NCBI GenBank assembly: GCA_009914755.4
Contig: CP068257.2
Location: forward strand, 7,328,001 to 7,392,000
Reading direction: 5' to 3'
Length of the DNA: 64,000 nucleotides
Origin: the human T2T-CHM13v2.0 reference genome, Homo sapiens
Shown: in pieces, positions 31,401-61,388 of the stretch
Position numbering within the stretch: the stretch's first letter is position 1
Layout: every line of letters begins with the position of its first letter
Program-made: the position numbers and the translations under genes
Notes under the pieces: model-generated
What the model was told of the DNA's origin: nothing
Databases searched by the model: none
The model's input: the letters and a program-made list of their open reading frames with translations, nothing else

Positions 31401-33050
31401 GGAATTGAAAGTAATGGAATGGAATAGTATAGTATCAAACGGAGTGGAATGGTATGGAATGGAATGGAATGGAACGGAATGGACTGGAATAAATGGAATG
31501 GAATGGAATGGAATCAACCCCACGGAAATAGAATGGAATATAATGGAATGGAATAAACCCGAGTAGAACAGAATGGAATGGAATGGAATGGAATGGAATG
31601 AAATGGAATGTCATGGAATGGAATGCAATGGAATGTCATGGAATGGAATGGAATGGAATGGAATCAACCAGAGTGGAATGGAACTGAATGGAATGGAATG
31701 GAATGGAATGGGATGCAATGGAATGGAATGGAATGGAATGGAATCAACCCGAGTGTAATGGAACGGAATGGAATGGAATGGAATGGAATGGAATGGAATG
31801 GAATGGAATGGAAAGGAATGGCATGGAATGGAATGGAATGCAATCAGCCTGAGTGGAATGGAATGTAATGGAATGCAATGGAATGGAATGGAAAGTAATG
31901 GAACGGAAAAGAATGGATTGGAATAAAATGGAATGAACCTGAATGGAATGGAAGGAATGAACGCGAATGGAATGGAATTGAATGGAACGGATTGGAATGG
32001 AATGGAATGGAATGGAATCAAACCAAGTGGAAAGGAATGGAATGGAATGGAGTGGAATGGAAAGGAATTGAATGGAATGGAATAGAATGGAATGGAATGG
32101 AATGGAATCAATCGGAATGGAATGGAATGGAAAGGAATGGAATGCTATGGAATCAACCCGAGTGTAATGTAAATGAATGGAATGGAATGGAATGGAATTG
32201 AAAGGAATGGAATGGAATGGAATAGAATGGAATCAACCTGAATGGGATGGAAAGGAATGGAATGGAATGGAATGGAATGCTATGGAATCAACCCGAGTGT
32301 AATGGAAATGAAAGGAATGGAATGGAATGGAAAGGAATGGAATGGAATGGAATCAACCCAAGTGCAATGGAATGGAATAGAATGCAGCGGAATCAACCCG
32401 AGTGGAATAGAATAGAAAGGCATGCAATGGAATGGAATGGAAAGCAACAGAATGGAATCAACCCGACTGCAATGGAATGGAATGGAAAGGAATGAAGGGA
32501 ATGGAATGGAATTGAAAGGTATGGAATCAACCCGAATGGAATGGAATGGAATGGATTGGAGTGGAATGGAATGGAATGGAGTGGAATGGAAAGCAATGCA
32601 ATGGAATGGAATGGATTAGAATGGAATGGAAAGGAATGGAATTGAAAGGCATGGAATGAACCCGAATTCAATGGAATGGAATGGAATGGAATGGAATGGA
32701 ATGGAATGGAATAGAATCAAATCGAGTGGAATGGAATGTAATGGAATTGGGTGGAATGGAATGGAATTGAATGGAATGCAATGGAATGGAATGGAATGGA
32801 ATCAACACGAATGGAATGGAATGGAATGGCATGGAATCAACCCGATTGGAATGGAATGGTATGGAATTCAATGGAATGGAATGGAATGCAATGGTATGGA
32901 ATCAACCCGAGTGGAACATTATCGAATGCAATGGAATGGAACGGAATGGAATGGAATAAAATGTAATGGAATGGAATGGAATCAACCGGAGTGGAATGGA
33001 ATGGAATGCAGTGGAATGGAATATGATGGAATTGAATGGAATTAAATGGA
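25400..33050 (+). repeat. HSat3 block C; ~3.6 kb higher-order repeat (two copies) with a nested ~385-bp duplication
   Basis: Near-identical segments recur at offsets of 3572–3603 bp: 26035–26220 = 29638–29823, 26145 = 29748, 26632 = 30230, 27272 = 30865, 27976 = 31573, 28410 = 31992, 28675 = 32247, and 29049 = 32626. Within each copy, 26632–26886 is near-identical to 27017–27265 (shift 385), and 30230–30484 to 30610–30858. Confidence 0.85.
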
Positions 33051-36000
33051 AAGGAACGGAATGGAATCAACACGAGTGGAATGGAATGGAATGGAATGGA
33101 ATGGAATCAACAAGAGTGGAATGGAATGGAATGGAATGGAATGCAATGGAATGAAACGTAATATAATGGAATGGAATGGAAACATCCCGAGTGGAATGGA
33201 ATGTTATGGAATGCAATGGAACGGAATGTAGCAGAACGGAATGGAATGGAACGGAGTAGAAAGAATCAGAGAGGAATTGAATGGAGAGGAATAGATTGGA
33301 ATGGAATGCAATGGATTCAATGCTAGTTGAACATCATGGATTGGAAAGGAATGGAATGGAATGGAATGGAGTGGAATGGAATGGAATAGAATCAACTTGA
33401 GTGGAAGGGAATGTAATGGAATGGAGTGGAATGGAATGGAGTGGAATGGAATGGAATGGAATAGAATGGAATGGAATGGATTGGAATGGAGTGGAATGGA
33501 ATGGAATGGAATGGAATGGAATGGAATGGAATGGAATGGAATCATCCCGAGTGGAATGGAATGGTATGGAATGCAATTGAATGGAATGGAACAGAACGGA
33601 AAGGAGTGCAATGGAATAGATGGAATCCGAGAGGAATTGACTGGAGTGGAATGGATTGGAATGGAATGCAAGGGATTCAACCCAATTGAATGTCATGGAT
33701 TGGAAAGGAGTGGAATGGAATGGAATGGAAAGGAGTGGAATGGAATGGAATGGAAACAACAAGAATGGAATGGAACGGAATGGAATGGAATGGAATGGAA
33801 TGGAATGGAATGGAATGGAATGGAATGGAAACAACACGAATGGAATGGAACGGAACGCAATGGAATGGAATGGGATCAACCCAAGCGCAATGGAATGGAA
33901 TAGTATGCAACGGAATGAACACGAGAGGAATGGAATAGAAAGGCATGCAATGCAATGGAATGGAAAGCAATGGAATGGAATCAAGCCGAATGGAATGGAA
34001 TCAAGCCGAATGGAATGGAATGGAATGGAAAGGAATGAATGGAACGGAATGGAATGCAAAGATATGGAATCAACCCGAGTGGAATGGAATGGAATGGAAT
34101 GGAATGGAGTGGAATGGAAGGCATTGCAATGGAATGGAATGGAATGGAATGTAACAGAACGGAATGGAATTGAATGGCACGGAATGAACACGAATGGAAT
34201 GGAATGGAATAGAATCAACTCGAGTGGAATGGAATGGAATGGAATGGAGTGGAATGGAATGGAATTGAATGGAATGGAATGGAATGGAATGGAATGGAAT
34301 GGAATCAGCCTGAATGGAATGGAATGGAATGGAATGGAATGGAATGGCATGGAATCAAGCCGAGTGGAATGGAATGGAATGGAATTCAATGGAATGGAAT
34401 GGAATGGAATGGTATGGAATCAACACGAGTGGAATATTATCGAGTGGAATGGAATGGAACGGAATGGAATGGAATAAAATGTAATGGAATGGAGTGGAAT
34501 CAACCAGAGTGGAATGGAATGGAATGGAGTGGAATGGTATATAATGGAATGGAATGGAATTAAATAGAAAGGAACGGAATGGAATCAACACGAGTGGAAC
34601 GGAATGGAATGGAAAGGAATCAACCCGAGTGGAATGAAATGGAATGTAATGCAACGAAATGGAGCGGAATAAACCTGAGTCGAATGCAATGCAATGGAAT
34701 GGAAAGGAGTGGAATTGAATGGAATGGAATGGAATGGAATGGAATGGAATGGAACGGAATGGAATCCAATGGAATCAACTGGAATGGAATAGCATAGAAT
34801 GGAATGGAATGGAGTGGAATCAATCCGCGTGGAATGCAAGGGAATGCATGGAGTGGAATGGAATGCAATGGAGTGGAATGGAATGGAATGCAGTGGAATT
34901 TAATGGAATGGAATCATCCCGAATGGAATGGAACGGAATGGAATGGAATGAAATGAAATGGAACCAACCCAAATGGGATGGAATGGAATGGAATGGAATG
35001 GAATGGAATGGAATGGAATGGGATGGGATGGGATGGGATGGGATGGAATGGAATGGAATGGAATGGAATGGAATGGAATGGAATGGAATGCAATGGAATG
35101 CAATGGAATGCTATGGAATCAACCTGAGTATAAAGGAAATGCATGGAATGGAATGGAATGGAATGGAATGGAATCAACCCAAGTGCAATGGAATGGAATG
35201 GAATGCAACGGAATCAACCCGAGGGGAATGGAATGAAAAGGATTGGAATGAAATGGAATGGAAAGGAATGGAATGGAATCAATCCGAATGGAATGGAATG
35301 GAATGGAAAGGAATGAATGGAATGGAATGGAATGGAATGGAGTGGAATGGTATGGAATCAACCCGAGTGGAATGGAATGGACTGGAATGGAATAGAATGG
35401 AATGGAATGGAATGGAATGGAATGAATAGAATGGAATCAACTATAATGGAATGGAATGGAATGGAATGGAATGCTATGGAATCAACCCGAGGGTAATGGA
35501 AATGAATGGAATGGAATGGAATGGAATGGAATCAACCCAAGTGCAATGGAATGGAATAGAATGCAACGGAATCAACCCGAGTGGAATGGAATAGAAAGGC
35601 ATGCAACGGAATGGAATGGAAAGCAATGGAATGGAATAAACCCGAATGGAATGGAATGGAAAGGAGTGAAGGGAATGGAATGGAATGGAAAGGTATGGAA
35701 TCAGCCCGAGTTCAATGGAATGGAATGGAATGGAATGGAATGGAATGGAATGGAATGGAATGCAATGGAATGGAATGGAATGGAGTGCAATGGAAGACAA
35801 TGCAATGGAATGTAATGGAATGGAATGGAACAGAACGGAATGGAATTGAATGGCATGGAATGAACCCGAATGGAATGGAATGGAATGGAATGGAATGGAA
35901 TGGAATGGAATGGAATGGAATGGAATGGAATAGAATCAACACGAGTGGAATGGAATGTAATGGAATGGAGTGGAATGGAATGGAATTGAGTGGAATGGAA

Positions 36001-39000
36001 TGGAATGGAATGGAATGGAATGGATTGGAATAGAATCAACCTGAATGGAATGTAATGGAATGGAATGGCATGGAATCAACCCGAGAGGAAAGGAATGGAA
36101 TGGAATTCAATGGAATGGAATGGAATGGAATAGTATGGAATCAACCCGAGTGGAATATTATCGAATGGAATGGAATGGAACGGAATGGGTTGGAGTAAAA
36201 TGTAATGGAATGGAATGGAATCAACCGGAGTGGAATGGAATTATATGGAGTGGAATGGTATATAATGGAACGGAATGGAATTAAATGGAAAGGAATGGAA
36301 TGGAATCAACACGAGTGGAAGGGAATGCAATGTAATGGAATGGAATCAACCCGAGTGGAATGGAATGGAATGGAATGGAATGGAATGCAATGGAATGAAA
36401 CGGAATATAATGGAATGGAATGTAAACATCCCGAGTGGAATGGAATGGTATGGAAGGCAATGAAACGAAATGGAACAGAACGGAATGGAATGGAAAGGAA
36501 TAGATTGAATCAGAGAGGAATTGAATGGAGAGGAATGGATTGGAATGGAATGCAATGGATTCAACCCTAGTTGAATGTCATGGATTGGAAAGGAATGCAA
36601 TGGAATGGAATGGAATGGAGTGGAATGGAATGGAGTGCAATCAACACGAATGGAATGGAACGGAATGGAATGAAATGGAATGGAATAGGAAACAACGCGA
36701 ATAGAATGGAACGGAATGGAATGGAATGCCGTGGAATGGAATGGAATGGAATGAAATAAACAGGAATAGAATGGAACGGAATGGAATGGAATGGAATGGA
36801 ATGGAATGGAGTGAAATGGAAAGGAACGGAATGGAATTAACACAAGTGGAATTGAATGGAATGGAAAGGAATCAACCCGAGTGGAATGAAATGGAATGTA
36901 ATGAAATGGAATGGAGCGGAATCAACCTGAGTGGAATGGAATGGAATGGAATGGAATGGAATGGAATGGAATGGAATGCAATGGAATGGAATGGAATGGA
37001 ATCAACCCGAATGGAATGGAACGGAATGGAATGGAATGGAATGGAATGGAATGCAATGGAATGGAATGGAATGGAATCAACCCGAATGGAATGGAATGGA
37101 AAGGAATGGAAAGGAATGGAATGGAATGGAATAGAATGGAATGGAATCATCCCGAGTGGAATGGAATGGTATGGAATGCAATGGAATGGAATGGAACAGA
37201 ATGGAAAGGATTGGAATGGAATAGATTGAATCCGAGAGGAATTGACTGGAGTGGAATGGATTGGAATGGAATGCAAGAGATTCAACCCAATTGAATGTCA
37301 TGGATTGGAAAGGAGTGGAATGGAATGGAATGGAAAGGAGTGGAATGGAATGGAATGGAATCAACACGAATGGAATGTAACGGAATGGAATGGAATGGAA
37401 TGGAATGGAAACAATACGAATGGAATGGAAGGGAATGGAATGGAATTAAATGCTGTGGAATGGAATGGAATGGAATGAAATAAACAGGAATAGAATGGAA
37501 CGGAATGGAATGGAAAGGAATGGAATGGAATGAAATGGAAAGAAACGGAATGGAATTAACCCGACTGGAACGGAATGGAATGGAAAGGAATCAATCCGAG
37601 TGGAATGAAATGGAATATAATGCAATGGAATGGAGCGGAAACAACCTGAGTCGAATGCAATGGAATGGAATGGAAAGGAGTGGAATGGAATGGAATGGAA
37701 TGGAATGGAATGGAATGGAATCGAATCGAATGGAATGCTATGGAATCAAACCGAGTGGAATGGAATGGAATGGAATGGAGTGGAATGGAATGGAATTGAA
37801 TGGAGTGGAATGGAATGGAATGGAATGGAATAGAATGGAATGGATTGGAATGGAATGGAATGGATTGGAATAGAATGGAATGGAATCAACACGAATGTAA
37901 TGGAATGGAATGGAACGGAATTGAATGGAATGGAATGGAAAAAACACGAATAGAATGGAACGGAATGGAATGGAATGCTGTGGAATGGAATGGAATGGAA
38001 TGAAAGAAACACAAATAAAATGGAACGGAAGGGAATGGAATGGAATGGAATGGAATGGAATGGAATGGAGTGAAAAGGAAAGGAATGGAATGGAATTAAC
38101 CCAAGTGGAATTGAATGGAATGGAAAGGAATCAACCCGAGTGGAATGAAATGGAATGTAATGCAATGGAATGGAGCGGAATCAACCTGAGAGGAATGGAA
38201 TGGAATGGAATGGAATGGAATGGAATGGAATGGAATGGAATGCAATGGAATGGAATGGAATGGAATCAACCCGAATGGAATGGAAAGGAATGGAATGGAA
38301 AGGAATTGAATGCAATTGAATGGAATGGAATGGAATAGAATGGAATCAACCAGAATGGAATGGAATGGAATGGAATGGAATGGAACGGAACGGAATCATC
38401 CCGAGTGGAATGGAATGGTATGGAATGCAATGGAATGGAATGGAACAGAATGGAAAGGAATGGAATGGAATAGATTGAATCCGAGAGGAATTGACTGGAG
38501 TGGAATGGATTGGAATGGAATGCAAGTGATTCAACCCAGTTGAATGTCATGGATTGGAAAGGAGTGGAATGGAATGGAATGGAATGGAATGGAAAGGAGT
38601 GGAATGGAATGGAATGAAATCAATACGAATGGAATGGAACGGAATGGAATGGAATGGAATGGAATGGAATGGAATGGAAACAACACGAATGGAATGGAAA
38701 GGAACGGAATGGAATAGAATGCTGTGGAATGGAATGGAATGGAATGGAAAGAAATGGAATGGAATGGACCGGAATGGAATCCAATGGAATGAAGTGGAAT
38801 GGAATAGCATAGAATGGAATGGAATAGAATGGAATCAACCAGAACGGATTGGAATGGAAAGGAATGGAATGGAATGGAATGGAATGGAATGCTATCGAAT
38901 CAAGACGAGTGTAATGGTAATGAATGGAATGGAATGGAATGGAATGGAATGGAATGGAATGAAATGGAATCAACCCAAGTGCAATGGAATGGAATAGAAT

Positions 39001-42000
39001 GAAACGGAATCAACCCGAGTGGAATGGAATAGAAAGGCATGCAAAGGAATCGAATGGAAAGCAATGGAATGGGATCACCTCGACTGGAATGGAATGGAAT
39101 GGAAAGGAATGAAGGGAATGGAATGGAATGGAAAGGTATGGAATCAATCCGAGTCGAATGGAATGGAATGGAATGGAATGGAGTGGAATGGAACGGAATG
39201 GAATTGAATGGCATGGAATGAACCCGAAAGGAATGGAATGGAATGTAATGGAATGGAATGGAATAGAAACAACTCGAGTGCAATGGAATGTAATGGAATG
39301 GAGTGTAATGGAATGGAATGGAATGGAATGGAATGGAATGGAATCAACCCGAATGGAATGGAATAGAATGGAATGGAATGGAATGGAATTGAATCAACCT
39401 GAATGGAATGGAACGGAATGGAACGGAAAGGAATGGAATGGAATGGAATGGAATAGAATGGAATCAACCAGAATGGGATGGAATGGAACGGAATGGAATG
39501 GAATGGAATGTGATCCTATTGAATCAACCCGAGTGTAATGAAAATGAATGGAATGGAATGAAATGGATTGGAATGGAATGGAATGGAATCAACCCGAGTG
39601 GAATGGAATGGAATGGAATGGAGTGCAATGGAATTGAATTCAATGGAGTGGAATGGAATGGAATGGAATGGAATAGATTGGATTAGAATAGAATGGAGTG
39701 GAATCAACACAAATGGAATGGAATGGAATGGAATGGACTGGAATGGAATGGAAACAACACGAATAGAATGGAACGGAATGGAATGGAATGCTGTGGAATG
39801 GAATGGAATGGAATGAAATAAACACGAATAGAATGGAACGGAATGGAATGGAATGGAATGGAATGGAATGGAATGGAATGGAAAGGAATCAGCCAGAATG
39901 GAATGGAATGGAATGGTATGGAATCAACCCAAGTGGAATGGAAAGGAATGGAATGCAATGGAATGAAATGGAATATAATGGAATGGAATGGACCATCACG
40001 AGTGGAATGGAATGGTATGGAATGCAATGGAACGGAAGGGAACAGAACGGAATATAATGGAACTGAATAGATTGAATCAGACAGGTATTGAATGGAGAGG
40101 AATGGATTGGAATGGAATGAAATGGATTCAACCCTAGTTGAATGTCATGGATTGGAAAAGAATGGAATGGAATGGAATGGAATGGATTGGAATAGAATGG
40201 AGTGGAATCAACACGAATGTAATGGAATGGAATGGAATGGAAGGGAATTGAATGGAATGGAATGGAAACAACACGAATAGAATGGAACGGAATGGAATGG
40301 AATGCTGTGGAATGGAATGGAATGGAATGAAATAAACACAAATAGAATGGAATGGAATGGAATGGAATGGAATGGACTGTAATGGAAAGGAACGGACTGG
40401 AATTAACCCAAGTGTAATTGAATGGAATGGAAAGGAATCAACCCTAGTGGAATGAACTGGAATGTAATGCAATGGAATGGAGCAGAATCAACCTGAGGGG
40501 AATGGAATGGAATGGAATAGAATGGAATGGAATGGAATGGAATGGAATGGAATGGAATGGAATGGAATGCAATGGAATGGAATGGAATCAACCCGAATGG
40601 AAAGGAAAGGTATGGAATGGAAAGGAATGGAATGGAATGGAATGGAAAGGAATGGAATGGAATGGAAGAGAATGGAATCAACCAGAATGGAATGGAATGG
40701 AATGGAATGGAATCATCCCGAGAGGAATGGAATGGTATGGAATGCAATGGAATGGAATGGAACAGAAGGGAAAGGAATAGAATGGAATAGATTGAATCCG
40801 AGAGGAATTGACTGGAGTGGAATGGATTGGAAAGGAATGCAAGGGATTCAACCCAGTTGAATGTCATGGATTGGAAATGAGTGGAATGGAATGGAATGGA
40901 ATGGAAAGGAGTGGAATGGAATTGAATGGAATCAACACGAATGGAATGGAACGGAATGGAATGCAATGGAATGGAATGGAATGGAATACAATGGAATCAA
41001 CCAGAATGGAATGGAATGGAATGGAATGGAATGGAATGGAATGGAATGGAATGCTATGGAATCAACCCGAGTGTAATGGAAATGAAATGAATGGAATGGA
41101 ATGGAATGGAATGGAATGGAATAGAATGGAATCAACCCAAGTGCAACGGAATGGAATAGAATGCTATGGAATCAACCCGAGCGGAATGGAATAGAAAGGC
41201 ATGCAATGGAATGGAATGGAAAGCAATGGAATGGAATCAACCCGACTGGAATGGAAAGGAATGGAAAGTAATGAAGGGAATGGAATGGAATTGAAAGGTA
41301 TGGAATCAACCCGAGTGGAATGGAATGGAATGGAAGGGAATGGAATGGAATGGAGTGGAATGGAAGGCAATGCAATGGAATGGAATGGCATGGAATGGAA
41401 CTGAACGGAATGGAATTGAATGGCATAGAATGAACCCGAATGGAATGGAATGGAATGGAATGGAATGGAATGGAATATAATCAACTCGAGTGGAATGTAA
41501 TGGAATGGAATGGACCGGAATGGAATGGAATATAATCAACTCGAGTGGAATGGAATGGAATGGAATGGAGTGGAATGGAATGGAATTGAATGGAATGGAA
41601 TGGAATGGAATGGAATGGAATGGAATGGAATCAGCCTGAATGGAATGGAATGGAATGGAATGGAATGGAATGGAATCAGCCTGAATGGAATGGAATGGAA
41701 TGGAATGGAATGGAATGGAATGGCATGGAATCAAGCCGAGTGGAATGGAATGGAATGGAATTCAATGGAATGGAATGGAATGGAATGGTATGGAATCAAC
41801 ACGAGTGGAATATTATCGAGTGGAATGGAATGGAACGGAATGGAATGGAATAAAATGTAATGGAATGGAGTGGAATCAACCAGAGTGGAATGGAATGGAA
41901 TGGAGTGGAATGGTATATAATGGAATGGAATGGAATTAAATAGAAAGGAACGGAATGGAATCAACACGAGTGGAACGGAATGGAATGGAAAGGAATCAAC

Positions 42001-45000: not shown

Positions 45001-48000
45001 AACAACCTGAGTCGAATGCAATGGAATGGAATGGAAAGGAGTGGAATGGAATGGAATGGAATGGAATGGAATGGAATGGAATCGAATGGAATGCTATGGA
45101 ATCAAACCGAGTGGAATGGAATGGAATGGAATGGAGTGGAATGGAATGGAATTGAATGGAGTGGAATGGAATGGAATGGAATGGAATAGAATGGAATGGA
45201 TTGGAATGGAATGCAATGGATTGGAATAGAATGGAGTGGAATCAACACGAATGTAATGGAATGGAATGGAACGGAATTGAATGGAATGGAATGGAAAAAA
45301 CACGAATAGAATGGAACGGAATGGAATGGAATGCTGTGGAATGGAATGGAATGGAATGAAAGAAACACAAATAGAATGGAACGGAATGGAATGGAATGGA
45401 ATGGAATGGAATGGAATGGAATGGAGTGAAAAGGAAAGGAATGGAATGGAATTAACCCAAGTGGAATTGAATGGAATGGAAAGGAATCAACCCGAGTGGA
45501 ATGAAATGGAATGTAATGCAATGGAATGGAGCGGAATCAACCTGAGAGGAATGGAATGGAATGGAATGGAATGGAATGGAATGGAATGGAATGGAATGGA
45601 ATGCAATGGAATGGAATGGAATGGAATCAACCCGAATGGAATGGAAAGGAATGGAATGGAAAGGAATTGAATGCAATGGAATGGAAAGGAATGGAATAGA
45701 ATGGAATCAACCAGAATGGAATGGAATGGAATGGAATGGAATGGAACGGAATGGAATCATCCCGAGTGGAATGGAATGGTATGGAATGCAATGGAATGGA
45801 ATGGAACAGAATGGAAAGGAATGGAATGGAATAGATTGAATCCGAGAGGAATTGACTGGAGTGGAATGGATTGGAATGGAATGCAAGTGATTCAACCCAG
45901 TTGAATGTCATGGATTGGAAAGGAGTGGAATGGAATGGAATGGAATGGAAAGGAGTGGAATGGAATGGAATGAAATCAATACGAATGGAATGGAACGGAA
46001 TGGAATGGAATGGAATGGAATGGAATGGAAAAAACACGAAAGGAATGGAAAGGAACGGAATGGAAAGGAATGGAATGGAATGGAATGGAATGGAATGGAA
46101 TGGAATGGAATGGAAACAACACGAATGGAATGGAAAGGAACGGAATGGAATAGAATGCTGTGGAATGGAATGGAATGGAATGGAAAGAAATGGAATGGAA
46201 TGGACCGGAATGGAATCCAATGGAATGAAGTGGAATGGAATAGCATAGAATGGAATGGAATAGAATGGAATCAACCAGAACGGATTGGAATGGAATGGAA
46301 TGGAATGGAATGGAATGGAATGGAATGGAATGCTATCGAATCAAGCCGAGTGTAATGGTAATGAATGGAATGGAATGGAATGGAATGGAATGGAATGAAA
46401 TGGAATCAACCCAAGTGCAATGGAATGGAATAGAATGCAACGGAATCAACCCGAGTGGAATGGAATAGAAAGGCATGCAAAGGAATCGAATGGAAAGCAA
46501 TGGAATGGGATCACCTCGACTGGAATGGAATGGAATGGAAAGGAATGAAGGGAATGGAATGGAATGGAAAGGTATGGAATCAATCCGAGTCGAATGGAAT
46601 GGAATGGAATGGAATGGAGTGGAATGGAACGGAATGGAATTGAATGGCATGGAATGAACCCGAATGGAATGGAATGGAATGGAATGGAATGGAATAGAAA
46701 CAACTAGAGTGCAATGGAATGTAATGGAATGGAGTGTAATGGAATGGAATGGAATGGAATGGAATGGAATGGAATGGAATCAACCCGAATGGAATGGAAT
46801 AGAATGGAATGGAATGGAATGGAATTGAATCAACCTGAATGGAATGGAACGGAATGGAACGGAAAGGAATGGAATGGAATGGAATGGAATAGAATGGAAT
46901 CAACCAGAATGGGATGGAATGGAACGGAATGGAATGGAATGGAATGTGATCCTATTGAATCAACCCGAGTGTAATGAAAATGAATGGAATGGAATGAAAT
47001 GGATTGGAATGGAATGGAATGGAATCAACCCGAGTGGAATGGAATGGAATGGAATGGAGTGCAATGGAATGGAATTGAATGGAGTGGAATGGAATGGAAT
47101 GGAATGGAATGGAATGGAAACAACACGAATAGAATGGAACGGAATGGAATGGAATGCTGTGGAATGGAATGGAATGGAATGAAATAAACACGAATAGAAT
47201 GGAACGGAATGGAATGGAATGGAATGGAATGGAATGGAATGGAATGGAAAGGAATCAGCCAGAATGGAATGGAATGGAATGGTATGGAATCAACCCAAGT
47301 GGAATGGAAAGGAATGGAATGCAATGGAATGAAACGGAATATAATGGAATGGAATGGACCATCCCGAGTGGAATGGAATGGTATGGAATGCAATGGAACG
47401 GAAGGGAACAGAACGGAATATAATGGAACGGAATAGATTGAATCAGACAGGAATTGAATGGAGAGGAATGGATTGGAATGGAATGAAATGGATTCAACCC
47501 TAGTTGAATGTCATGGATTGGAAAAGAATGGAATGGAATGGAATGGAATGGAATGGAATGGATTGGAATAGAATGGAGTGGAATCAACACGAATGTAATG
47601 GAATGGAATGGAATGGAAGGGAATTGAATGGAATGGAATGGAAACAACACGAATAGAATGGAACGGAATGGAATGGAATGCTGTGGAATGGAATGGAATG
47701 GAATGAAATAAACACAAATAGAATGGAATGGAATGGAATGGACTGTAATGGAAAGGAACGGACTGGAATTAACCCAAGTGTAATTGAATGGAATGGAAAG
47801 GAATCAACCCTAGTGGAATGAACTGGAATGTAATGCAATGGAATGGAGCAGAATCAACCTGAGGGGAATGGAATGGAATGGAATAGAATGGAATGGAATG
47901 GAATGGAATGGAATGGAATGCAATGCAATGGAATGGAATGGAATCAACCCGAATGGAATGGAAAGGTATGGAATGGAAAGGAATGGAATGGAATGGAATG

Positions 48001-51000
48001 GAAAGGAATGGAATGGAATGGAAGAGAATGGAATCAACCAGAATGGAATGGAATGGAATGGAATGGAATCATCCCGAGACGAATGGAATGGTATGGAATG
48101 CAATGGAATGGAATGGAACAGAAGGGAAAGGAATAGAATGGAATACATTGAATCCGAGAGGAATTGACTGGAGTGGAATGGATTGGAAAGGAATGCAAGG
48201 GATTCAACCCAGTTGAATGTCATGGATTGGAAATGAGTGGAATGGAATGGAATGGAATGGAAAGGAGTGGAATGGAATTGAATGGAATCAACACGAATGG
48301 AATGGAACGGAATGGAATGGAATGTAATGGAATGGAATGGAATGGAAACAACACGAATGGAATGGAACGGAACGGAATGGAATAGAATGCTGTGGAATGG
48401 AATGGAATGGAATGAAAAAAACACGAATAGAATGGAACGGAATGGAATGGAAAGGAATGGAATGGAATGGAATGGAATGGAATGAAAGAGAAAGGAACGG
48501 AATGGAATTAACCCGAGTGGAATGGAATGGAATGGAAAGGAATCAATCCGAGTGGAATGAAATGGAATGTAATGCAATGGAATGGAGCGGAATCAACCTG
48601 AGTCGAATGCAATGGAATGGAATGGAAAGGAGTGGAATGGAATGGAATGGAATGGAATGGAATGGAAAGAAATGGAATGGAATGGAACGGAATGGAATCC
48701 AATGGAATCAACTGGAATGGAATAGCGTAGAATGGAATGGAATGGAGTGGAATCAATCCACGTGGAATGCAATGGAATGCATGGAGTGGAATGGAATGCA
48801 ATGGAGTGGAATGGAATGGAATGGAATGCAGTGGAATTTAATGGAATGGGATCATCCCGAATGGAATGGAACGAAATGGAATGGAAGGGAATGAAATGGA
48901 ATCAACCCAAATGGGATGGAATGGAATGGAATGGAATGGAATGGAATGCAATGGAATGCTATGGAATCAACCTGAGTATAAAGGAAATGCATGGAATGGA
49001 ATGGAATGGAATGGAATGGAATGGAATCAACCGAAGTGCAATGGAATGGAATGGAATGCAACGGAATCAACCCGAGGGGAATGGAATGAAAAGGATTGGA
49101 ATGAAATGGAATGGAAAGGAATGGAATGGAATCAATCCGAATGGAATGGAATGGAATGGAAAGGAATGAATGGAATGGAATGGAATGGAGTGGAATGGTG
49201 TGGAATCAACTGGAGTGGAATGGAATGGACTGGAATGGAATAGAATGGAATGGAATGGAATGGAATGAATAGAATGGAATCAACTATAATGGAAAGGAAT
49301 GGAATGGAATGGAATGGAATGGAATGGAATGGAATGCTATTTAATCAACCTGAGGGTAATGGAAATGAATGGAATGGAATGGAATGGAATGGAATCAACC
49401 CAAGTGCAATGGAATGGAATAGAATGCAATGGAATCAACCCGAGTGGAATGGAATAGAAAGGCATGCAACGGAATGGAATGGAAAGCAATGGAATGGAAT
49501 CAACCCGAATGAAATGGAATGGAAAGGAATGAAGGGAATGGAATGGAATGGAAAGGTATGGAATCAACCCGAGTTCAATGGAATGGAATGGAATGGAATG
49601 GAATGGAATGGAGTGCAGTGGAAGACAATGCAATGGAATGTAATGGAATGGAATGGAATAGAACGGAATGGAATTGAATGGCATGGAATGAACCCGAATG
49701 GAATGGAATGGAATGGAATGGAATGGAATGGAATGGAATCAACACGAGTGGAATGGAATGTAATGGAATGGAGTGGAATGGAATGGAATTGAGTGGAATG
49801 GAATGGAATGGAATGGAATGGAATGGATTGGAATAGAATCAACCTGAATGGAATGTAATGGAATGGAATGGCATGGAATCAACCCGAGAAGAAAGGAATG
49901 GAATGGAATTCAATGGAATGGAATGGAATGGAATAGTATGGAATCAACCCGAGTGGAATATTATCGAATGGAATGGAATGGAATGGAATGGATTGGAATA
50001 AAATGTAATGGAATGGAATAGAATCAACCGGAGTGGAATGGAATTATATGGAGTGGAATGGTATATAATGGAATGGAATGGAATTAAATGGAAAGGAATG
50101 GAATGGAAACGTCCCGAGTGGAATGGAATGGTATGGAAGGCAATGGAACGAAATGGAACAGAACGGAATGGAATGGAAAGGAATAGATTGAATCAGAGAG
50201 GAATTGAATGGAGAGGAATGGATTGGAATGGAATGCAATGGATTCAACCCTAGTTGAATCTCATGGATTGGAAAGGAATGCAATGGAATGGAATGGAATG
50301 GAGTGGAATGGAATGGAGTGGAATCAACACGAATGGAATGGAACGGAATGGAATGAAATGGAATGGAATAGGAAACAACGCGAACAGAATGGAACGGAAT
50401 GGAATGGAATGCTGTGGAATGGAATGGAATGGAATGAAATAAACAGGAATAGAATGGAACGGAATGGAACAGAATGGAATGGAATGGAATGGAATGGAGT
50501 GAAATGGAAAGGAACGGAATGGAATTAACACAAGTGGAATTGAATGGAATGGAAAGGAATCAACCCGAGTGGAATGAAATGGAATGCAATGAAATGGTTT
50601 GGAGCGGAATCAACCTGAGTGGAATGGAATGGAATGGAATGGAATGGAATGGAATGGAATGGAATGGAATGCAATGGAATGGAATGGAATGGAATCAACC
50701 CGAATGCAATGGAACGGAATGGAACGGAATGGAATGGAATGGAATGGAATGGAATGCAAAGGAATGGAATGGAATGGATTCAACCCGAATGGAATGGAAT
50801 GGAAAGGAATGGAAAGGAATGGAATGGAATGGAATGGAATGGAATAGAATGGAATGGAATCATCCCGAGTGGAATGGAATGGTATGGAATGCAATGGAAT
50901 GGAATGGAACAGAACGGAAAGGATTGGAATGGAACAGATTGAATCCGAGAGGAATTGACTGGAGTGGAATGGATTGGAATGGAATGCAAGGGATTCAACC

Positions 51001-54000
51001 AAGTTGAATGTCATGGATTGGAAAGGAGTGGAATGAAATGGAATGGAAAGGAGTGGAATGGAATGGAATGGAATCAACACGAATGGAATGGAACGGAATG
51101 GAATGGAAACAATACTAATGGAATGGAAGGGAATGGAATGGAATTAAATGCTGTGGAATGGAATGGAATGGAATGAAATAAACACGAATAGAATGGAACG
51201 GAATGGAATGGAAAGGAATGGAATGGAATGAAATGGAAAGAAACGGAATGGAATTAACCCGACTGGAACGGAATGGAATGGAAAGGAATCAATCCGAGTG
51301 GAATGAAATGGAATATAATGCAATGGAATGGAGCAGAATCAACCTGAGTCGAATGCAATGGAATGGAATGGAAAGGAGTGGAATTGAATGGAATGGAATG
51401 GAATGGAATGGAATGGAATGGAATGGAATGCTATGGAATCAACCCGAGTGGAATGGAACGGAATGGAATGGAGTGGAATGGAATGGAATTGAATGGAGTG
51501 GAATGGAATGGAATGGAATGGAATGGAATGGAATGGAATGGATTGGAATAGAATGGAGTGGAATCAACACGAATGTAATGGAATGGAATGGAACGGAATT
51601 GAATGGAATGGAATGGAAACAACACGAATAGAATGGAACGGAATGGAATGGAATGCTGTGGAATGGAATGGAATGGAATGAAAGAAACACAAATAGAATG
51701 GAACGGAATGGAATGGAATGGAATGGAATGGAATGGAATGGAATGCTATGGAATCAACCCGAGTGTAATGGAAATGAAATGAATGGAATGGAATGGAATG
51801 GAATGGAATGGAATAGAATGGAATCAACCCAAGTGCAACGGAATGGAATAGAATGCTATGGAATCAACCCGAGCGGAATGGAATAGAAAGGCATGCAATG
51901 GAATGGAATGGAAAGCAATGGAATGGAATCAACCCGACTGGAATGGAAAGGAATGGAAAGTAATGAAGGGAATGGAATGGAATTGAAAGGTATGGAATCA
52001 ACCCGAGTGGAATGGAATGGAATGGAAGGGAATGGAATGGAATGGAGTGGAATGGAAGGCAATGCAATGGAATGGAATGGCATGGAATGGAACTGAACGG
52101 AATGGAATTGAAATGCATAGAATGAACCCGAATGGAATGGAATGGAATGGAATGGAATGGAATGGAATATAATCAACTCGAGTGGAATGTAATGGAATGG
52201 AATGGACCGGAATGGAATGGAATATAATCAACTCGAGTGGAATGGAATGGAATGGAATGGAGTGGAATGGAATGGAATTGAATGGAATGGAATGGAATGG
52301 AATGGAATGGAATGGAATGGAATCAGCCTGAATGGAATGGAATGGAATGGAATGGAATGGAATGGAATCAGCCTGAATGGAATGGAATGGAATGGAATGG
52401 AATGGAATGGAATGGCATGGAATCAAACCGAGTGGAATGGAATGGAATGGAATTCAATGGAATGGAATGGAATGGAATGGTATGGAATCAACACGAGTGG
52501 AATATTATCGAGTGGAATGGAATGGAACGGAATGGAATGGAATAAAATGTAATGGAATGGAGTGGAATCAACCAGAGTGGAATGGAATGGAATGGAGTGG
52601 AATGGTATATAATGGAATGGAATGGAATTAAATAGAAAGGAACGGAATGGAATCAACACGAGTGGAACGGAATGGAATGGAAAGGAATCAACCCGAGTGG
52701 AATGAAATGGAATGTAATGCAACGAAATGGAGCGGAATAAACCTGAGTCGAATGCAATGCAATGGAATGGAAAGGAGTGGAATGGAATGGAATGGAATGG
52801 AATGGAATGGAATGGAACGGAATGGAATGCTATGGAATCAACCCGAGTGGAATGGAATGGAATGGAATGGAGTGGAATGGAATGGAATTGAATGGAGTGG
52901 AATGGAATGGAATGGAATGGAATTGAATTGAATGGATTGGATTGGAGTAGAATGGAGTGGAATCAACACGAATGTAATGGAATGGAATGGAATGGAATGG
53001 AACGGATTGGAATTGAATGGAATGGAACGGAAACAACACGAATAGAATGGAACGGAATGGAATGGAATGCTGTGGAATGGAATGGAATGGAATGAAATAA
53101 ACACAAATAGAATGGATCGGAATGGAATGGAATGGAATGGAATGGAATGGAATGGAATGGAGTGAAATGGAAAGGAACGGAATGGAATTAACCCAAGTGG
53201 AATTGAATGGAATGGAAAGGAATCAACCCGAGTGGAATGAAATGGAATGTAATGCAATGGAATGGAGCGGAATCAACCTGAGGGGAATGGAATGGAATGG
53301 AATGGAATGGAATGGAATGGAATGCAATGGAATGGAATGGAATGGAATCAACCCGAATGGAATTGAAAGGAATGGAATGGGAAGGAATGGAATGGAATGG
53401 AATGGAATGGAATAGAATGGAATCAACCAGAATGGAATGGAATGGTATGGAGTGGAATTGAATGGAATGGAATGGAATGGAATCATCCCGAGTGGAATGG
53501 AATGGTATGGAATACAATAGAATGGAATGGAACAGAATGGAAAGAAATGGAATGGAATAGATTGAATCCGAGAGGAATTGACTGGATTGGAATGGATTGG
53601 AATGGAATGCAAGGGATTCAACCCAGTTGAATGTCATGGATTGGAAAGGAGTGGAATGGAATGGAATGGAAAGGAGTGGAATGGAATGCAATGAAATCAA
53701 CACGAATGGAATGGAACGGAATGGAATGGAATGGAATGGAAACAACACTAACGGAATGGAATGGAACGGAATGGAATAGAATGCTGCGGAATGGAATGGA
53801 ATGGAATGAAATAAACACGAATAGAATGGAATGGAATGGAATGGAAAGGAATGGAATGGAATGGAATGGAATGGAATGGAATGCAATGAAATGGAAAGGA
53901 ATGGAATGGAATTAACCCGAGTGGAACGGAATGGAATGGAAAGGAATCAATCCGAGTGGAATGAAATGGAAAGTAATGCAATGGAATGGAGCGGAAACAA

Positions 54001-57000
54001 CCTGAGTCGAATGCAATGGAATGGAATGGAAAGGAGTGGAATGGAATGGAATGGAAAGGAATGGAATGGAATGGAACAGAATGGAATCCAATGGAATCAA
54101 CTGGAATGGAATAGCATAGAATGGAATGGAATAGAATGGAATCAACCAGAACGGAATGGAATGGAATGGAATGGAATGTTATGGAATGGAATGGAATGCT
54201 ATGGAATCAACACGAGTGTAATGGAAATGAATGGAATGGAATGGAATGGAATGGAATGGAATGGAATGGATTGGAATGGAATGGAATCAACCCAAGTGAA
54301 AATGAATGGAATAGAATGCAACGGAATCAACCCAGGTGGAATGGAATAGAAAGGCATGCAAATGAATCGAATGGAAAGCAATGGAATGGAATCAACCCGA
54401 CTGGAATGGAAAGGAATGGAAAGGAATGAAGGGAATGGAATGGAATGGAAAGGTATGGAATCAACCAGGGTGGAATGGAAAGGAATGGAATGGAATGGAA
54501 TGGAATGGAATGGAATGGAGTGGAATGGAACGGAATGGAATTGAATGGCATGGAATGAACCCGAATGGAATGGAATAGAATGGAATGGAATGGAATGGAA
54601 TGGAATGGAATAGAAACAACTCGAGTGCAATGGAATGTAATGGAATGGAGTGGAATGGAATGGAGTGGAATGGAATGGAATGGAATGGAATGGAATGGAA
54701 TGGAATCAAACCGAATGGAATGGAATAGAATGGAATGGAATGGAACGGAATGGAATGGAATGGAATGGAATCAACCCGAATGGAATGGAACGGAATGGAA
54801 TGGAATGGAATGGAATGGAATAGAATGGAATCAACCAGAATGGGATGGGATGGAATGGAATGGAATGGAATGGAATGGAATGGAATGGAATGGAATGTGA
54901 TCCTATTGAATCAACCCGAGTGTAATGAAAATGAATGGAATGGAATGGAATGGAATGGAATCAACCCGAGTGGAATGGAATGGAATGGAATGGAGTTTAA
55001 TGGAATGGAATTGAATGGAGTGGAATGGAATGGAATGGAATGGAATGGAATGGAATGGAATGGAATCAACCCGAATGGAATGGTATGGAATGGAATACCA
55101 TGGAATCAACCCGAGTGGAATGGAATGGAATGGAATTCAATGGAATGGAATGGAATGCAATGGTATGTAATCAACCCGAGTGGAATATTATCGAATGCAA
55201 TGGAATGGAACGGAATGGAATGGAATAAAATGTAATGGAATGGAATGGAATCAACCGGAGTGCAATGGAATGGAATGGAGTGGAATGGAATATAATGGAA
55301 TGGAATGGAATTAAATGGAAAGGAACGGAATGGAATCAACACGAGTGGAATGGAATGGAATGGAATGGAATGGAATGGAATGGAATCAACCCGAGTGGAA
55401 TGGAATGGAATGGAATGCAATGGAATGAAATGTAATATAGTGGAATGGAATGGAAACATCCCGAGTGGAATGGAATGGTATGGAATGCAATGAAACGGAA
55501 TGGAACAGAACGGAATGGAATGGAACGAAATAGAATGAATCAGAGAGGAATTGAATGGAGAGGAATGGATTGGAATGGAATGCAATGGATTCAACGATAG
55601 TTGAATATCATGGATTGGAAAGGAATGGAATGGAATAGAATGGAATTGAATGGAATTGAATGGAATGGAGTGGAATGGAATGCAACGGAATGAAATTGAA
55701 TGGAATTGAATGGAATGGAGTGGAATGGAATGGAATGGAATGGAATGAAGTGGAATGGAATGGAATGGAATGGATTGAAGTGGAATGGAATGGAATGGAG
55801 TGGAATGGAATGGAATGGAATGCAATGGAATGGAATGGAGTGGAATGGAATGGAATGGAATGCAATGGAATGGAATGGAGTGGAATGGAATGGAATGGAA
55901 TGCAATGGAATGGAATGGAATAGAATGGAACGGAATGCAATGCAATGGAATGGAATCAACCCGATTGGAATGGAACGGAATGGAAGGGAAAGGAATGGAA
56001 TGGAATGGAATGGAATGGAATGGAATGGAATGGAAAGGAATGGAATGGAATGGAATGGAATGGAATGGAATGGAATGGAATGGAATGGAGTCATCCCGAG
56101 TGGAATGGAATGGTATGGAATGCAATGGAATGGAATGGAACAGAACGGAAAGGAATGGAATGGAACAGATTGAATCCGAGAGGAATTGACTGCAGTGGAA
56201 TGGATTGGAATTTAATGCAAGGGATTCAACCCAGTTGAATGTCATGGATTGGAAAGGAGTGGAATGGAATGGAATGGAAATGAGTGGAATGGAATGGAAT
56301 GGAATCAACACGAATGGAATGGAACAGAATGGAATGGAATGGAATATAATAGAATGGAATGGAGTGGAATGGAATGGAAACAACACGAATGGAATGGAAC
56401 GGAACGGAGTGGAATGGAATGGTGTGGAATGGAATGGAATGGAATGAAATAAACACGAATAGAATGGAACGGAATGGAATGGAATGGAATGGAATGGAAT
56501 GGAATGGTATGGAATGGAATGGAATGGAATGAAATGGAAAAGAATGGAATGGAATTGACCCGAGTGGAACGGAATGGAATGGAAAGGAATCAACCCGAGT
56601 GGAATGAAATGGAATGTAATGCAATGGAATTGAGTGGAATCAACCTGAGTCGAATGCAATGGAATGGAATGGAATGGAGTGGAATTGAATGGAAAGGAAT
56701 GGAATGGAACGGAATGGAATCCAATGGAATCAACTGGAATGGAATAGCATAGAATGGAATGGAATGGAATGGAATCAATCCGGGTGGAATGGAATGGAAT
56801 GTATGGAGTGGAATGGAATGGAATGGTGTGGAATGGAATGCAGTGGAATTTAATGGAATGGAATCAACCCGAATGGAATGGAATGGAATGGAATGGAAAG
56901 TAATGGAATGGAATGGAATGGAATAGAATGGAATGGAATCAACCGTAATGGGATGGAATGGAATGGAATAGAATGGAATCAACCCGAATGTAATGGAACG

Positions 57001-60000: not shown

Positions 60001-60240
60001 GGAATGGAATGGAAAGGAGTGGAATGGAATGGAATGGAATGGAATGGAATGGAATGGAACGGAATGGAATGGAATGGAATGGAATGGAACGGAATGGAAT
60101 GGAATCAACCCGAGTGCAATGGAATGCAATGAAATGGAATGGAATTAACGAGAGTGGCATGGAGTGGAATGGAATAGAATGGTATGGAATGGAATAGAAT
60201 CGAATGGAATCAACTTGAGGGGAAAGGAATAGATTGGAAA
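33050..60240 (+). repeat. HSat3 block D; ~7.35 kb HOR in three-plus copies, the third copy rearranged
   Basis: Offsets of 7341–7376 bp link 34234–34563 to 41685–41939, 36045 to 43386, 36726 to 44117, 37505 to 44866, 38554 to 45915, 40472 to 47838, and 40808 to 48164. The third copy shows a 6462-bp offset (43546 to 50008) and a 10692-bp offset (41164–41484 to 51856–52176; 41510 to 52202; 41685 to 52377). Its internal modules are therefore deleted or permuted relative to copy 2. Confidence 0.85.
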
Positions 60241-60257
60241 GGAATGGAATGGAATAG

Positions 60258-60325
60258 TGAAATGAAATGTGAGCTGAGATTCTGCCTCTGCACTCCAGAC
60301 TGGGTGACAGAGTGAGATCCTGTTG
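60258..60325 (+). mobile_element. Alu 3'-arm fragment (~55 bp), copy 1, embedded in satellite
   Basis: gtgagctgagattctgcctctgcactccagactgggtgacagagtgagatcctg. Confidence 0.75.
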
Positions 60326-60667
60326 AATGTAAAGAATGGAATGGAATAGACTGTAATATAATGGAGTGGAGCAGAGCAGAGTGGCGTAGAGTGGAGTAGA
60401 ATGGAGTGGAGTGGAGTGGAATGGAATGGGAAGGAATCTAATGGTATGAAGTGGAGGGGAGTGGAGTGGAGGGACGAGGGGTGGAATGGAATGGAATTGG
60501 ATGGAATTGGATGGAATTGGATGGAGTGGAGTGGATTGGGGTGGAGAGGAGTGGAGTAGAGTGGAATGGAATGGAATGCAATGGAATGGAGTGGAGTGGA
60601 GCAGAGTGGATTTTAGTGTAATGGAATAGAATGGAATGGAAAGGAATGGAATGGTATTGACTGGAAT

Positions 60668-60735
60668 TATGAAATGAAATATGAGCTGAGACTGTGCCAC
60701 TGCACTCCAGCCTGGGTGACAAAGTGAGATCCTGT
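60668..60735 (+). mobile_element. Alu 3'-arm fragment, copy 2
   Basis: atgagctgagactgtgccactgcactccagcctgggtgacaaagtgagatcctgtcgaagg. Confidence 0.75.
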
Positions 60736-60944
60736 CGAAGGAAATGAATGGAATTTAAAGGAGTGGAATGGAATGGAGTGGAATGGAATGGAATGGAGTG
60801 GAGTGGAGTGGAGTGGAGTGGCGTGGAATGGAATTGAATGGAATGGAATGGAGTGCAGTGGAGTGGAGTTCATAGGAGTGGAATGAAATGGGATGGAATG
60901 GAATTGAATGGAATATAATGGAATGGAATGGAATGGTGAAATTA

Positions 60945-61010
60945 AATGTGAGCTGAGATACTGTCACTCCACTCCAGTCTGGGTGACAGATTGAGATCCT
61001 GTCGAAAGAA
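60945..61010 (+). mobile_element. Alu 3'-arm fragment, copy 3 (variant type)
   Basis: gtgagctgagatactgtcactccactccagtctgggtgacagattgagatcctgtcgaaag. Confidence 0.7.
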
Positions 61011-61057
61011 AGAAATGGAAAGGAATGGAATGGTATTGACTGGAATTATGAAATGAA

Positions 61058-61125
61058 ATATGAGCTGAGACTGTGCCACTGCACTCCAGCCTGGGTGACA
61101 AAGTGAGATCCTGTCGAAGGAAATG
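61058..61125 (+). mobile_element. Alu 3'-arm fragment, copy 4 (identical to copy 2)
   Basis: atgagctgagactgtgccactgcactccagcctgggtgacaaagtgagatcctgtcgaagg. Confidence 0.75.
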
Positions 61126-61321: not shown

Positions 61322-61388
61322 TAAATGTGAGCTGAGATACTGTCACTCCACTCCAGTCTGGGTGACAGATTGAGATCCTGTCGAAAGA
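61322..61388 (+). mobile_element. Alu 3'-arm fragment, copy 5 (identical to copy 3)
   Basis: gtgagctgagatactgtcactccactccagtctgggtgacagattgagatcctgtcgaaag. Confidence 0.7.

What the first reader, a model, noticed from the sequence alone, without database searches (positions are those of the whole stretch)
33050..55500. Third ~7.35-kb HOR copy is rearranged relative to copy 2
Copies 1→2 are collinear (offset 7341–7376). From copy 2 to copy 3, some modules move by 6462 bp (43546 to 50008) and others by 10692 bp (41164–42030 to 51856–52722). The B/C module (41164–42030) is therefore missing after 48164 in copy 3 and reappears ~3.3 kb downstream, after the 44866-equivalent module at 51203. This is a structural-variant breakpoint inside a satellite HOR. 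It could be unequal exchange between ~1.2–1.4-kb sub-modules, or an assembly collapse or expansion.
Basis: seen in the sequence. Interest (0 to 1): 0.55.

Follow-up and report, generated by a model that had tools for sequence, protein, structure and literature searches.

The report
Recent sub-module copy in HSat3 satellite
The breakpoints are real: a 1.13-kb piece of a human-type satellite-3 array has recently been copied 10.7 kb downstream into older repeat copies. This is the ordinary way such satellites evolve, not a new kind of feature.

Summary
Observation confirmed. Copies 1 and 2 (34280-40987 and 41655-48343) are collinear at offsets of 7336-7436 and 99.3% identical. Downstream the offset jumps: 7356, about 6547 falling to 6322, then 10692, then 7736.

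The "third copy" is not one rearranged copy. It is a mosaic of age layers:
- j (48344-48436): a short remnant.
- R (48437-51704): matches unit positions ~41890-45425 at 97.9% and is an outgroup to copies 1 and 2.
- The patch (51705-52828): matches 41013-42141 with 3 substitutions and one 5-bp indel (99.7%). It is the youngest element in the region.
- T (52829-~56365): matches 45093-48343 at about 94.5%.

Both patch junctions lie in or beside perfect (AATGG)8-10 runs, inside paralogous ends of ~1.2-kb sub-modules. The module is duplicated rather than moved: the donor is intact, and an older version of its last ~250 bp still sits where expected (48437-48690).

The best reading is a homology-mediated non-allelic copy (ectopic gene conversion or template switching) inside an HSat3 nested tandem repeat near the array edge. 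The rivals are a 3.34-kb insertion into the 7.36-kb duplication and a mis-assembly, which cannot be tested without reads. The window has no window-wide period, so "HOR" is a misnomer. This is known biology and of low interest.

The parts
34280..40987 (+). Q1: first copy of the recent 7.36-kb tandem duplication
   Evidence: Aligns to 41655-48343 at 99.27% substitution identity. There are 48 substitutions and 21 indel events, all multiples of 5 bp.
41013..42141 (+). Donor sub-module. It comprises spacer P1 (which has only two close copies, P1 itself and the patch) plus the first ~490 bp of copy 2.
   Evidence: Matches 51705-52828 with 3 substitutions and one 5-bp indel. It is bounded by perfect AATGG runs at 41004-41053 and 42086-42130.
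41655..48343 (+). Q2: second copy of the 7.36-kb duplication
   Evidence: High identity to Q1 ends at 48343, which corresponds to 40987.
48344..48436 (+). j: short junction remnant after Q2. It resembles the 'ACACGAAT.GAATGGAACGG...' sub-module end seen around unit 45300-45475.
   Evidence: Read directly in the sequence. The best tile matches elsewhere are 85% or lower.
48437..51704 (+). R: older copy of unit ~41890-45425. Its first ~250 bp (48437-48690) are the old in-place version of the end of the 'moved' module.
   Evidence: 97.9% identity to both Q1 and Q2, with 14-17 indel events. It is an outgroup: 57 sites have Q1=Q2 but differ in R, against 16 and 12 sites for the other two patterns. 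Left edge.
51705..52828 (+). Patch: young near-identical copy of 41013-42141
   Evidence: 99.73% identity, and the flanks drop to 83-92% at once. It shows 4 differences, whereas every 1124-bp window of Q1 versus Q2 has at least 8 (0 of 559 windows). It carries the copy-2 state at both sites that distinguish copy 1 from copy 2.
51705..51745 (+). Left junction: perfect (AATGG)8 run
   Evidence: Upstream sequence matches unit 45345-45382. Downstream sequence matches unit 41054 onward.
52778..52830 (+). Right junction: perfect (AATGG)8 run, then the donor-type AACGGAATGGAAT, then acceptor-type GCTATGG...
   Evidence: Three-way comparison. Donor and acceptor share a paralogous context of about 90 bp: CCTGAGTCGAATGCAATG.AATGGAATGGAAAGGAGTGG(AATGG)n.
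52829..56365 (+). T: oldest layer, loosely collinear with unit 45093-48343
   Evidence: 94.5% identity with 15.5 indel events per kb. The controls give 90.3% with 17.6 per kb (shifted within the unit) and 85.7% with about 26 per kb (unrelated).
51415..51747 (+). e_R: R-lineage copy of unit 45093-45425. The same unit stretch recurs as e_T at 52829-53161.
   Evidence: e_R differs from e_T at 28 of 364 sites but from copy 2 at only 9 of 364. The tree is ((e1,e2),eR),eT. The 332-bp repeat flanking the patch is therefore old and was not made together with the patch.

Best explanation
**Setting.** The region is the edge of a hominoid HSat3 array, made of (AATGG)n with CAACCCGAGT motifs. Its multi-kb repeats are nested tandem repeats built from ~1.2-kb sub-modules, and they have expanded locally and at different times.

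**Layers.** At 33-56 kb there are four age layers:
- T, an old layer.
- R, an intermediate layer.
- Q1/Q2, a recent 7.36-kb tandem duplication.
- The patch, which is the youngest.

**The event.** The most recent event copied one sub-module (41013-42141, taken from the copy 1/copy 2 boundary) to 51705-52828, between R and T. The copy was non-reciprocal and homology-mediated. It was either ectopic gene conversion that overwrote an older paralogous sub-module, or repair or replication with two template switches. Entry was in a perfect (AATGG)8-10 run. Exit was in a ~90-bp paralogous sub-module end.

**Shown versus inferred.** Shown: the anatomy, the relative ages and the junction sequences. Inferred: the molecular pathway and the state of the site before the event.

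**Function.** The rearrangement has no function of its own. It is a footprint of satellite turnover.
For: **Identity of the region**
- Period-5 AATGG runs across 1-62648.
- 252 CAACCCGAGT-type motif hits.
- An L1 ORF2 fragment lies in the flank.

**Patch boundaries and age**
- The patch is sharply bounded: 99.73% inside, 83-92% in the flanks.
- It is less diverged than every equal-sized window of Q1 versus Q2 (4 differences against at least 8; 0 of 559 windows).
- It has the copy-2 state at both sites that distinguish copy 1 from copy 2.
- The donor is intact.

**Junctions**
- All four donor and acceptor junction sites fall in or directly beside perfect AATGG runs of at least 40 bp, which cover only 8.4% of the region.

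**Older layers**
- R is an outgroup to Q1/Q2.
- T is older still, and the e_R and e_T copies flanking the patch differ at about 8% of sites.

**Array context**
- Sub-module periodicity of 1.2/2.3/3.55 kb.
- Other local duplications in the window have other periods.
- No inverted repeats at 33-57 kb.

**Literature**
- HSat2/3 multi-kb units are nested tandem repeats whose periodicity varies within an array and which expand hyper-locally (10.1101/2021.07.12.452052).
Against: - The left edge of the donor (41004-41013) lies only 17-26 bp from the point where Q1/Q2 high identity ends (40987). Also, 10692 - 7356 = 3336. The patch could therefore be read as the displaced tail of the Q1-to-Q2 duplication. 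Under my reading this is a coincidence. It would occur roughly 3-8% of the time if both events are restricted to the 12-31 long AATGG runs of the unit.
- Relative to copies 1 and 2, copy 3 carries a net extra 1414 bp at this site. Pure replacement-type conversion therefore requires an unseen older sub-module there beforehand.
- The state before the event cannot be observed from one sequence.
- Read-level support for the assembly is unknown.
Confidence: 0.55

Rival explanations
1. **Insertion view.** The recent tandem duplication originally ran 34280-42141 to 41655-48343 plus 51705-52828, made by one unequal exchange between the two ~490-bp near-identical q repeats. A 3,336-bp block (j+R, 48344-51680) was later inserted into the (AATGG)n run at unit 40987-41013. 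This split copy 2 from its own tail.
For: - Q2 identity stops at unit 40987 and the patch starts at unit 41004-41013.
- Removing 3336 bp restores the local offset of 7356 exactly.
- The start of j resembles the end of R, so the block is flanked by similar ~90-bp sequences.
Against: - The patch has 4 differences from its partner, while no 1124-bp window of Q1 versus Q2 has fewer than 8. The two pairs are therefore not the same age unless the patch was later homogenised.
- R is an outgroup to Q1 and Q2, and no closer source for it exists in the window.
- R ends at unit 45425 and T starts at unit 45093. Under this view that near-collinearity is unexplained coincidence.
- High identity would span about 7.84 kb, more than one 7.36-kb period.
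Confidence: 0.2
2. **Assembly or polishing artefact.** The 1.13-kb patch, or the order of the segments, was produced by a mis-join, a collapse or expansion, or mis-mapped reads during consensus polishing.
For: - Satellite arrays are hard to assemble.
- Both junctions lie in low-complexity (AATGG)n runs.
- No independent sequence could be found to check the junctions.
Against: - The patch is not a verbatim reuse of the donor. It carries 3 private substitutions and a 5-bp indel.
- It is only 1.13 kb long and is flanked on both sides by sequence 2-6% diverged and rich in indels relative to its paralogues. Any read longer than about 2 kb would anchor it uniquely.
- An artefact would need two compensating mis-joins, because the flanks return to the older lineages.
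- These are arguments, not a test.
Confidence: 0.13
3. **Deletion view.** A once-regular array of four or more 7.36-kb units was trimmed by three homology-mediated deletions. About 0.8-0.9 kb was lost at the start of unit 3. About 2.94 kb was lost from unit 45425 to the next 41013. About 2.95 kb was lost from unit 42141 to 45093.
For: In coordinates modulo 7356, all three junctions are forward skips. Two of them are nearly equal in size (2944 and 2952 bp) and join paralogous sub-module ends.
Against: The surviving pieces have very different divergence from copy 2: 97.9%, 99.73% and 94.5%. They cannot be parts of same-age units without further conversion events. The model also needs three events plus homogenisation.
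Confidence: 0.08

Closest known systems
HSat3 nested tandem repeats (NTRs) as described for T2T-CHM13 (Altemose et al., 10.1101/2021.07.12.452052)
   Same: - A pentamer (CATTC/GAATG)-derived satellite organised into multi-kb repeat units.
- Periodicity changes along the array and units expand hyper-locally. The window shows 7.4-7.6, 6.1/5.6, 3.6, 7.36 and 2.9-kb local duplications.
- TE fragments are incorporated near the edge of the array.
   Different: Nothing differs in kind. The HSat3 subfamily and the chromosome were not determined here. This particular 1.13-kb copy was not looked up in any annotation.
Alpha-satellite higher-order repeats (HORs)
   Same: A hierarchical repeat-of-repeats organisation, homogenised by unequal exchange and conversion.
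   Different: - There are no discrete monomers of uniform length.
- There is no array-wide constant period.
- Only two near-identical unit copies exist.
- Sub-modules are about 1.2 kb, irregular, and only about 76-90% alike.
Ectopic (non-allelic) gene conversion tracts between paralogous repeats
   Same: - A short (~1.1 kb), sharply bounded tract of near-identity in a context of lower identity.
- The donor is left unchanged.
- The end points lie in stretches of shared homology.
   Different: Whether an older homologous segment was replaced cannot be seen. Compared with copies 1 and 2, the site is 1414 bp longer.
Tandem duplication by unequal sister-chromatid exchange (Smith-type satellite model; my own knowledge)
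   Same: This model explains the Q1/Q2 pair: about one period of 99.3% identity flanked by older paralogy.
   Different: It does not explain the patch. Only 1.13 kb of the 10.69-kb offset is highly identical.

Membership tests
Human satellite 3 (HSat3) | Built from diverged (CATTC)n / (GAATG)n pentamers | tested here: met
   TRF finds period 5 with consensus AATGG across 1-62648. Strand skew is constant and strong.
Human satellite 3 (HSat3) | Interspersed CAACCCGA(A/G)T-type decamer (classical satellite 3 motif; from my own knowledge) | tested here: met
   252 matches to AATGCTATGGAATCAACCCGAGTG at up to 3 mismatches, against 0 expected.
Human satellite 3 (HSat3) | Assignment to one of the subfamilies A1-6 or B1-5 by diagnostic 24-mers (Altemose 2014) | not tested
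   The k-mer lists were not available. A text search of PMC4022460 gave no usable criteria.
Nested tandem repeat (NTR) of HSat2/3 | Multi-kb repeat unit layered on the simple repeat, with periodicity that may vary locally | tested here: met
   Local periods of 7.36, 7.4-7.6, 6.1/5.6, 3.6 and 2.9 kb. Sub-module offsets of 1.2/2.3/3.55 kb. Definition.
Higher-order repeat in the alpha-satellite sense | A discrete number of similar-length monomers forming a unit that is repeated many times with a constant period | tested here: not met
   Only two copies are more than 99% alike, there is no window-wide period, and the sub-modules are irregular.
Gene-conversion tract | A sharply bounded near-identical tract within less similar paralogous flanks, with the donor retained | tested here: met
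   99.73% identity over 1124 bp. The flanks are 83-92% within 100 bp of the tract. The donor at 41013-42141 is intact.
Gene-conversion tract | Replacement of a pre-existing homologous segment with no change in length | not testable with these tools
   The pre-event haplotype is unknown. Compared with copies 1 and 2 the site is +1414 bp, and the flanking e_R and e_T copies are old.
Simple unequal-crossover tandem duplication (as the origin of the patch) | One full period of contiguous high identity at the duplication offset | tested here: not met
   At offset 10692, only 1.13 kb of 10.69 kb is highly identical.
Inversion-type rearrangement (common in the chr9 HSat3 array) | A strand switch of the pentamer | tested here: not met
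   GC and AT skew are constant across 1-60 kb. No inverted repeats of at least 40 bp at 33-57 kb.

The most novel reading that the evidence does not exclude
The 1.13-kb sub-module may have behaved as a mobile unit. It is bounded by direct (AATGG)n runs. It could have been excised as an extrachromosomal circle by recombination between those runs, then re-integrated by homologous recombination into another run 10.7 kb away. This would be a sequence-resolved example of circle-mediated spread of satellite sub-modules in a human HSat3 array. The evidence does not exclude it. However, the donor-type AACGG beyond the right-hand run and the old e_R/e_T flanks fit it no better than conversion.
Probability: 0.05. 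Interest if true: 0.4.

Novelty: already known. Interest (0 to 1): 0.15.

Why it matters
It matters little beyond bookkeeping. The finding shows base-level footprints of how HSat3 nested repeats turn over: layered local duplications, and a young 1.1-kb non-allelic copy with junctions in perfect pentamer runs. This agrees with published descriptions of HSat2/3 arrays. It could serve as a marker for haplotype or assembly validation at this array edge. It does not open a new question.

Tried and rejected
- Tiled blastn of the window against itself timed out, because every tile hits everything. It was replaced by k-mer-seeded tile alignments.
- Unfiltered blastn of copy 2 against the window was swamped by 78-85% background hits.
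- Using the 1.13-kb module as a probe to define a sub-module register failed. It aligns almost anywhere at 76-83%.
- The motif AATGCTATGGAATCAACCCGAGTG is too frequent to mark sub-module boundaries.
- A local target-site-type duplication made together with the patch was rejected. The two 332-bp flanking copies differ at 28 of 364 sites.
- A single unequal crossover as the origin of the patch was rejected.
- An inversion was rejected.
- Junction-specific and patch-specific patterns gave 0 hits in metagenome contigs and genome contigs. There is therefore no independent check of the junctions.
- An Rfam scan of 60-64 kb returned nothing.
- The text of Altemose 2014 gave no periodicity or motif criteria for assigning a subfamily.
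Full report
**What the window is.** Tandem Repeats Finder reports one array of period 5 (consensus AATGG) from 1 to 62648. Strand skew is constant and strong up to about 60 kb. The classical satellite-3 motif CAACCCGAGT is everywhere: 252 matches to a 24-mer containing it, against 0 expected.

From about 60.2 to 62.65 kb the repeat changes. It becomes (AGTGG/AATGG)n interspersed with roughly 50-bp fragments that I recognise as the 3' end of Alu (read; three of them matched). At 62649 unique sequence begins with a degenerate LINE-1 ORF2 fragment. That fragment hits Pfam RVT_1 and residues 541-655 of human L1 ORF2p. The window is therefore the edge of a hominoid HSat3 array.

**Checking the observation.** Exact 32-mer chains and offset histograms reproduce every number in the finding. 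Copies 1 and 2 are collinear at 7336-7436. 43274-43646 maps to 49736-50108 at 6462. 41024-42112 maps to 51716-52804 at 10692.

Global alignments sharpen the picture. I use copy-2 coordinates as "unit" coordinates.
- Q1 (34280-40987) against Q2 (41655-48343): 99.27% identity, with 48 substitutions and 21 indel events, all multiples of 5 bp.
- After 48343 comes a ~90-bp remnant, j.
- R (48437-51704) matches unit ~41890-45425 at 97.9%, with 14-17 indel events.
- The patch (51705-52828) matches unit 41013-42141 with 3 substitutions and one 5-bp indel (99.73%).
- T (52829-~56365) matches unit 45093-48343 at 94.5%, with 15.5 indel events per kb.

Controls with the same scoring give 85.7% with about 26 indel events per kb for unrelated array segments. 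A shifted comparison within the unit gives 90.3% with 17.6 per kb. Three of the ten longest exact repeats in the window lie in the patch.

**What the "third copy" really is.** It is not one copy.
- Three-way site patterns show that R is an outgroup to Q1 and Q2. At 57 sites Q1=Q2 and R differs, against 16 and 12 sites for the other two patterns.
- Unit 45093-45425 occurs four times. The tree is ((e1,e2),eR),eT, with eR and eT differing at 28 of 364 sites.
- The 332-bp stretch that flanks the patch on both sides is therefore old. It cannot be a duplication created together with the 99.7% patch.
- The patch is the youngest element. It has 4 differences in 1124 bp, whereas none of 559 sliding 1124-bp windows of the Q1/Q2 alignment has fewer than 8.
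- At both sites that separate copy 1 from copy 2 in the shared ~490 bp, the patch has the copy-2 state.

The order of ages is T > R > Q1/Q2 > patch.

The module is also not simply moved. The donor is intact, and an older version (~94%) of unit ~41890-42141 is still at the expected place, 48437-48690. Only unit ~40988-41890 is missing there.

**Junctions.**
- On the left, copy 3 follows the copy-2-like sequence ...GAAAGAAACACAAATAGAATGGAACGG into a perfect (AATGG)8 run (51705-51745). It leaves the run as AATGCTATGGAATCAACCCGAGTGTAATGG, which is the donor sequence after its own 50-bp run (41004-41053).
- On the right, donor and acceptor share about 90 bp: CCTGAGTCGAATGCAATG.AATGGAATGGAAAGGAGTGG(AATGG)n. 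The switch falls just after the donor-type AACGGAATGGAAT, at 52828/52829.
- Perfect AATGG runs of at least 40 bp cover 8.4% of 33-57 kb. All four donor and acceptor junction sites lie in or directly beside such runs.
- Within the unit, non-trivial 20-mers recur at offsets of about 1.2, 2.3 and 3.55 kb. The 7.36-kb unit is therefore about six irregular ~1.2-kb sub-modules, and the patch is about one sub-module.
- There are no inverted repeats, so no inversion is involved.

**Mechanism.** A single unequal crossover is excluded for the patch. It would give a full period of high identity, but only 1.13 kb of 10.69 kb is highly identical.

My preferred reading (confidence 0.55) is a non-reciprocal, homology-mediated copy of one sub-module from the copy 1/copy 2 boundary into the older R/T context. 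It would be either ectopic gene conversion over an older paralogous sub-module or a two-switch template-switching repair. The anatomy, relative ages and junction sequences are shown. The pathway and the pre-event state are inferred.

The main rival (0.2) comes from a real coincidence. Q1/Q2 identity ends at unit 40987 and the patch donor starts at 41004-41013. Also, 10692 - 3336 = 7356. The patch could therefore be the original tail of the Q2 copy, separated from it by a 3,336-bp insertion (j+R). Four things count against this:
- The patch is significantly less diverged than Q1/Q2.
- R is an outgroup with no closer source in the window.
- The near-collinearity of R (ends at unit 45425) and T (starts at 45093) would be unexplained.
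- The span of high identity (~7.84 kb) would exceed one period.

A three-deletion history from a regular array fits the geometry: all junctions are forward skips modulo 7356, and two of them are about 2.95 kb. It does not fit the mixed divergences (0.08).

An assembly or polishing artefact (0.13) cannot be tested here. The patch's private differences and its short length between distinctive flanks argue against it. However, the scans of two public collections for junction-specific and patch-specific patterns found nothing that could confirm the junctions independently.

**Comparison with what is known.** Altemose et al. (10.1101/2021.07.12.452052) describe exactly this organisation for HSat2/3:
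- Multi-kb "nested tandem repeats", named to distinguish them from HORs.
- TE fragments as part of the repeating units.

The rest of the window agrees. There are independent local duplications with periods of 7.4-7.6 kb (1-5000 to 7495-12630, 98.9%), 6.1/5.6 kb (16.3-19.3 to 22.4-24.9 kb), 3.6 kb (25592-29201 to 29190-32778, 99.4%) and 2.9 kb (54.1-55.7 to 57.0-58.6 kb). No period is shared across the window.

[quoted passage not shown] The membership tests for HSat3 and NTR are met. The test for an alpha-satellite-type HOR is not met.

**Verdict.** The feature is real but ordinary. It is partly wrong: this is not a rearranged third copy, the module was copied rather than moved, and the unit is not an HOR. 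Novelty: already known. Interest: 0.15.

Noticed in passing
window 60200-62648: Transition zone at the array edge. (AATGG)n gives way to (AGTGG/AATGG)n interspersed about every 280-410 bp with a ~50-bp fragment resembling the 3' end of Alu (GAGCTGAGA..GCCACTGCACTCCAGCCTGGGTGACA.AGTGAGATCCTGTC). About eight copies are visible by eye at ~60271, 60683, 60950, 61062, 61330, 61819, 62119 and 62395. The zone includes a near-perfect 379-bp tandem duplication (60635-61033 to 61014-61412).
   Followed up: partly
window 62649-63002: The satellite ends abruptly at 62648. It abuts a degenerate LINE-1 ORF2 fragment (RVT_1; residues 541-655 of human ORF2p, with stop codons and a frameshift), followed by AT-rich unique sequence up to 64000.
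   Followed up: yes
window 1-12630; 16300-24950; 25592-32778; 54100-58600: Independent local tandem duplications with different periods and ages: 7.4-7.6 kb (98.9%), 6.1/5.6 kb (~95%), 3.6 kb (99.4%) and 2.9 kb (~95.5%). The array has no window-wide repeat unit.
   Followed up: partly
window 26593-27364 and 30191-30957: Inside each 3.6-kb copy there is a 380-385-bp near-identical internal tandem duplication (26593-26979 to 26978-27364; 30191-30577 to 30571-30957).
   Followed up: no
window ~3012, 10601, 12143, 33529, 37134, 38392, 44495, 45748, 50847, 53463, 56091, 58680, 59434: A conserved ~250-bp module recurs at least 12 times across otherwise diverged parts of the array, at irregular spacings (about 1.25, 1.5 and 2.6 kb). 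Most of the copies that could be checked begin with the variant motif AATGGAATGGAATCATCCCGAGTG. It is better conserved (~85-92%) than its surroundings.
   Followed up: no
window 38641 and 39739 (copy 1) versus copy 2: The largest length differences between the two 99.3% copies are an 80-bp and a 70-bp indel. All 21 indels are multiples of 5 bp. This indicates pentamer-register slippage as the dominant mutation.
   Followed up: partly
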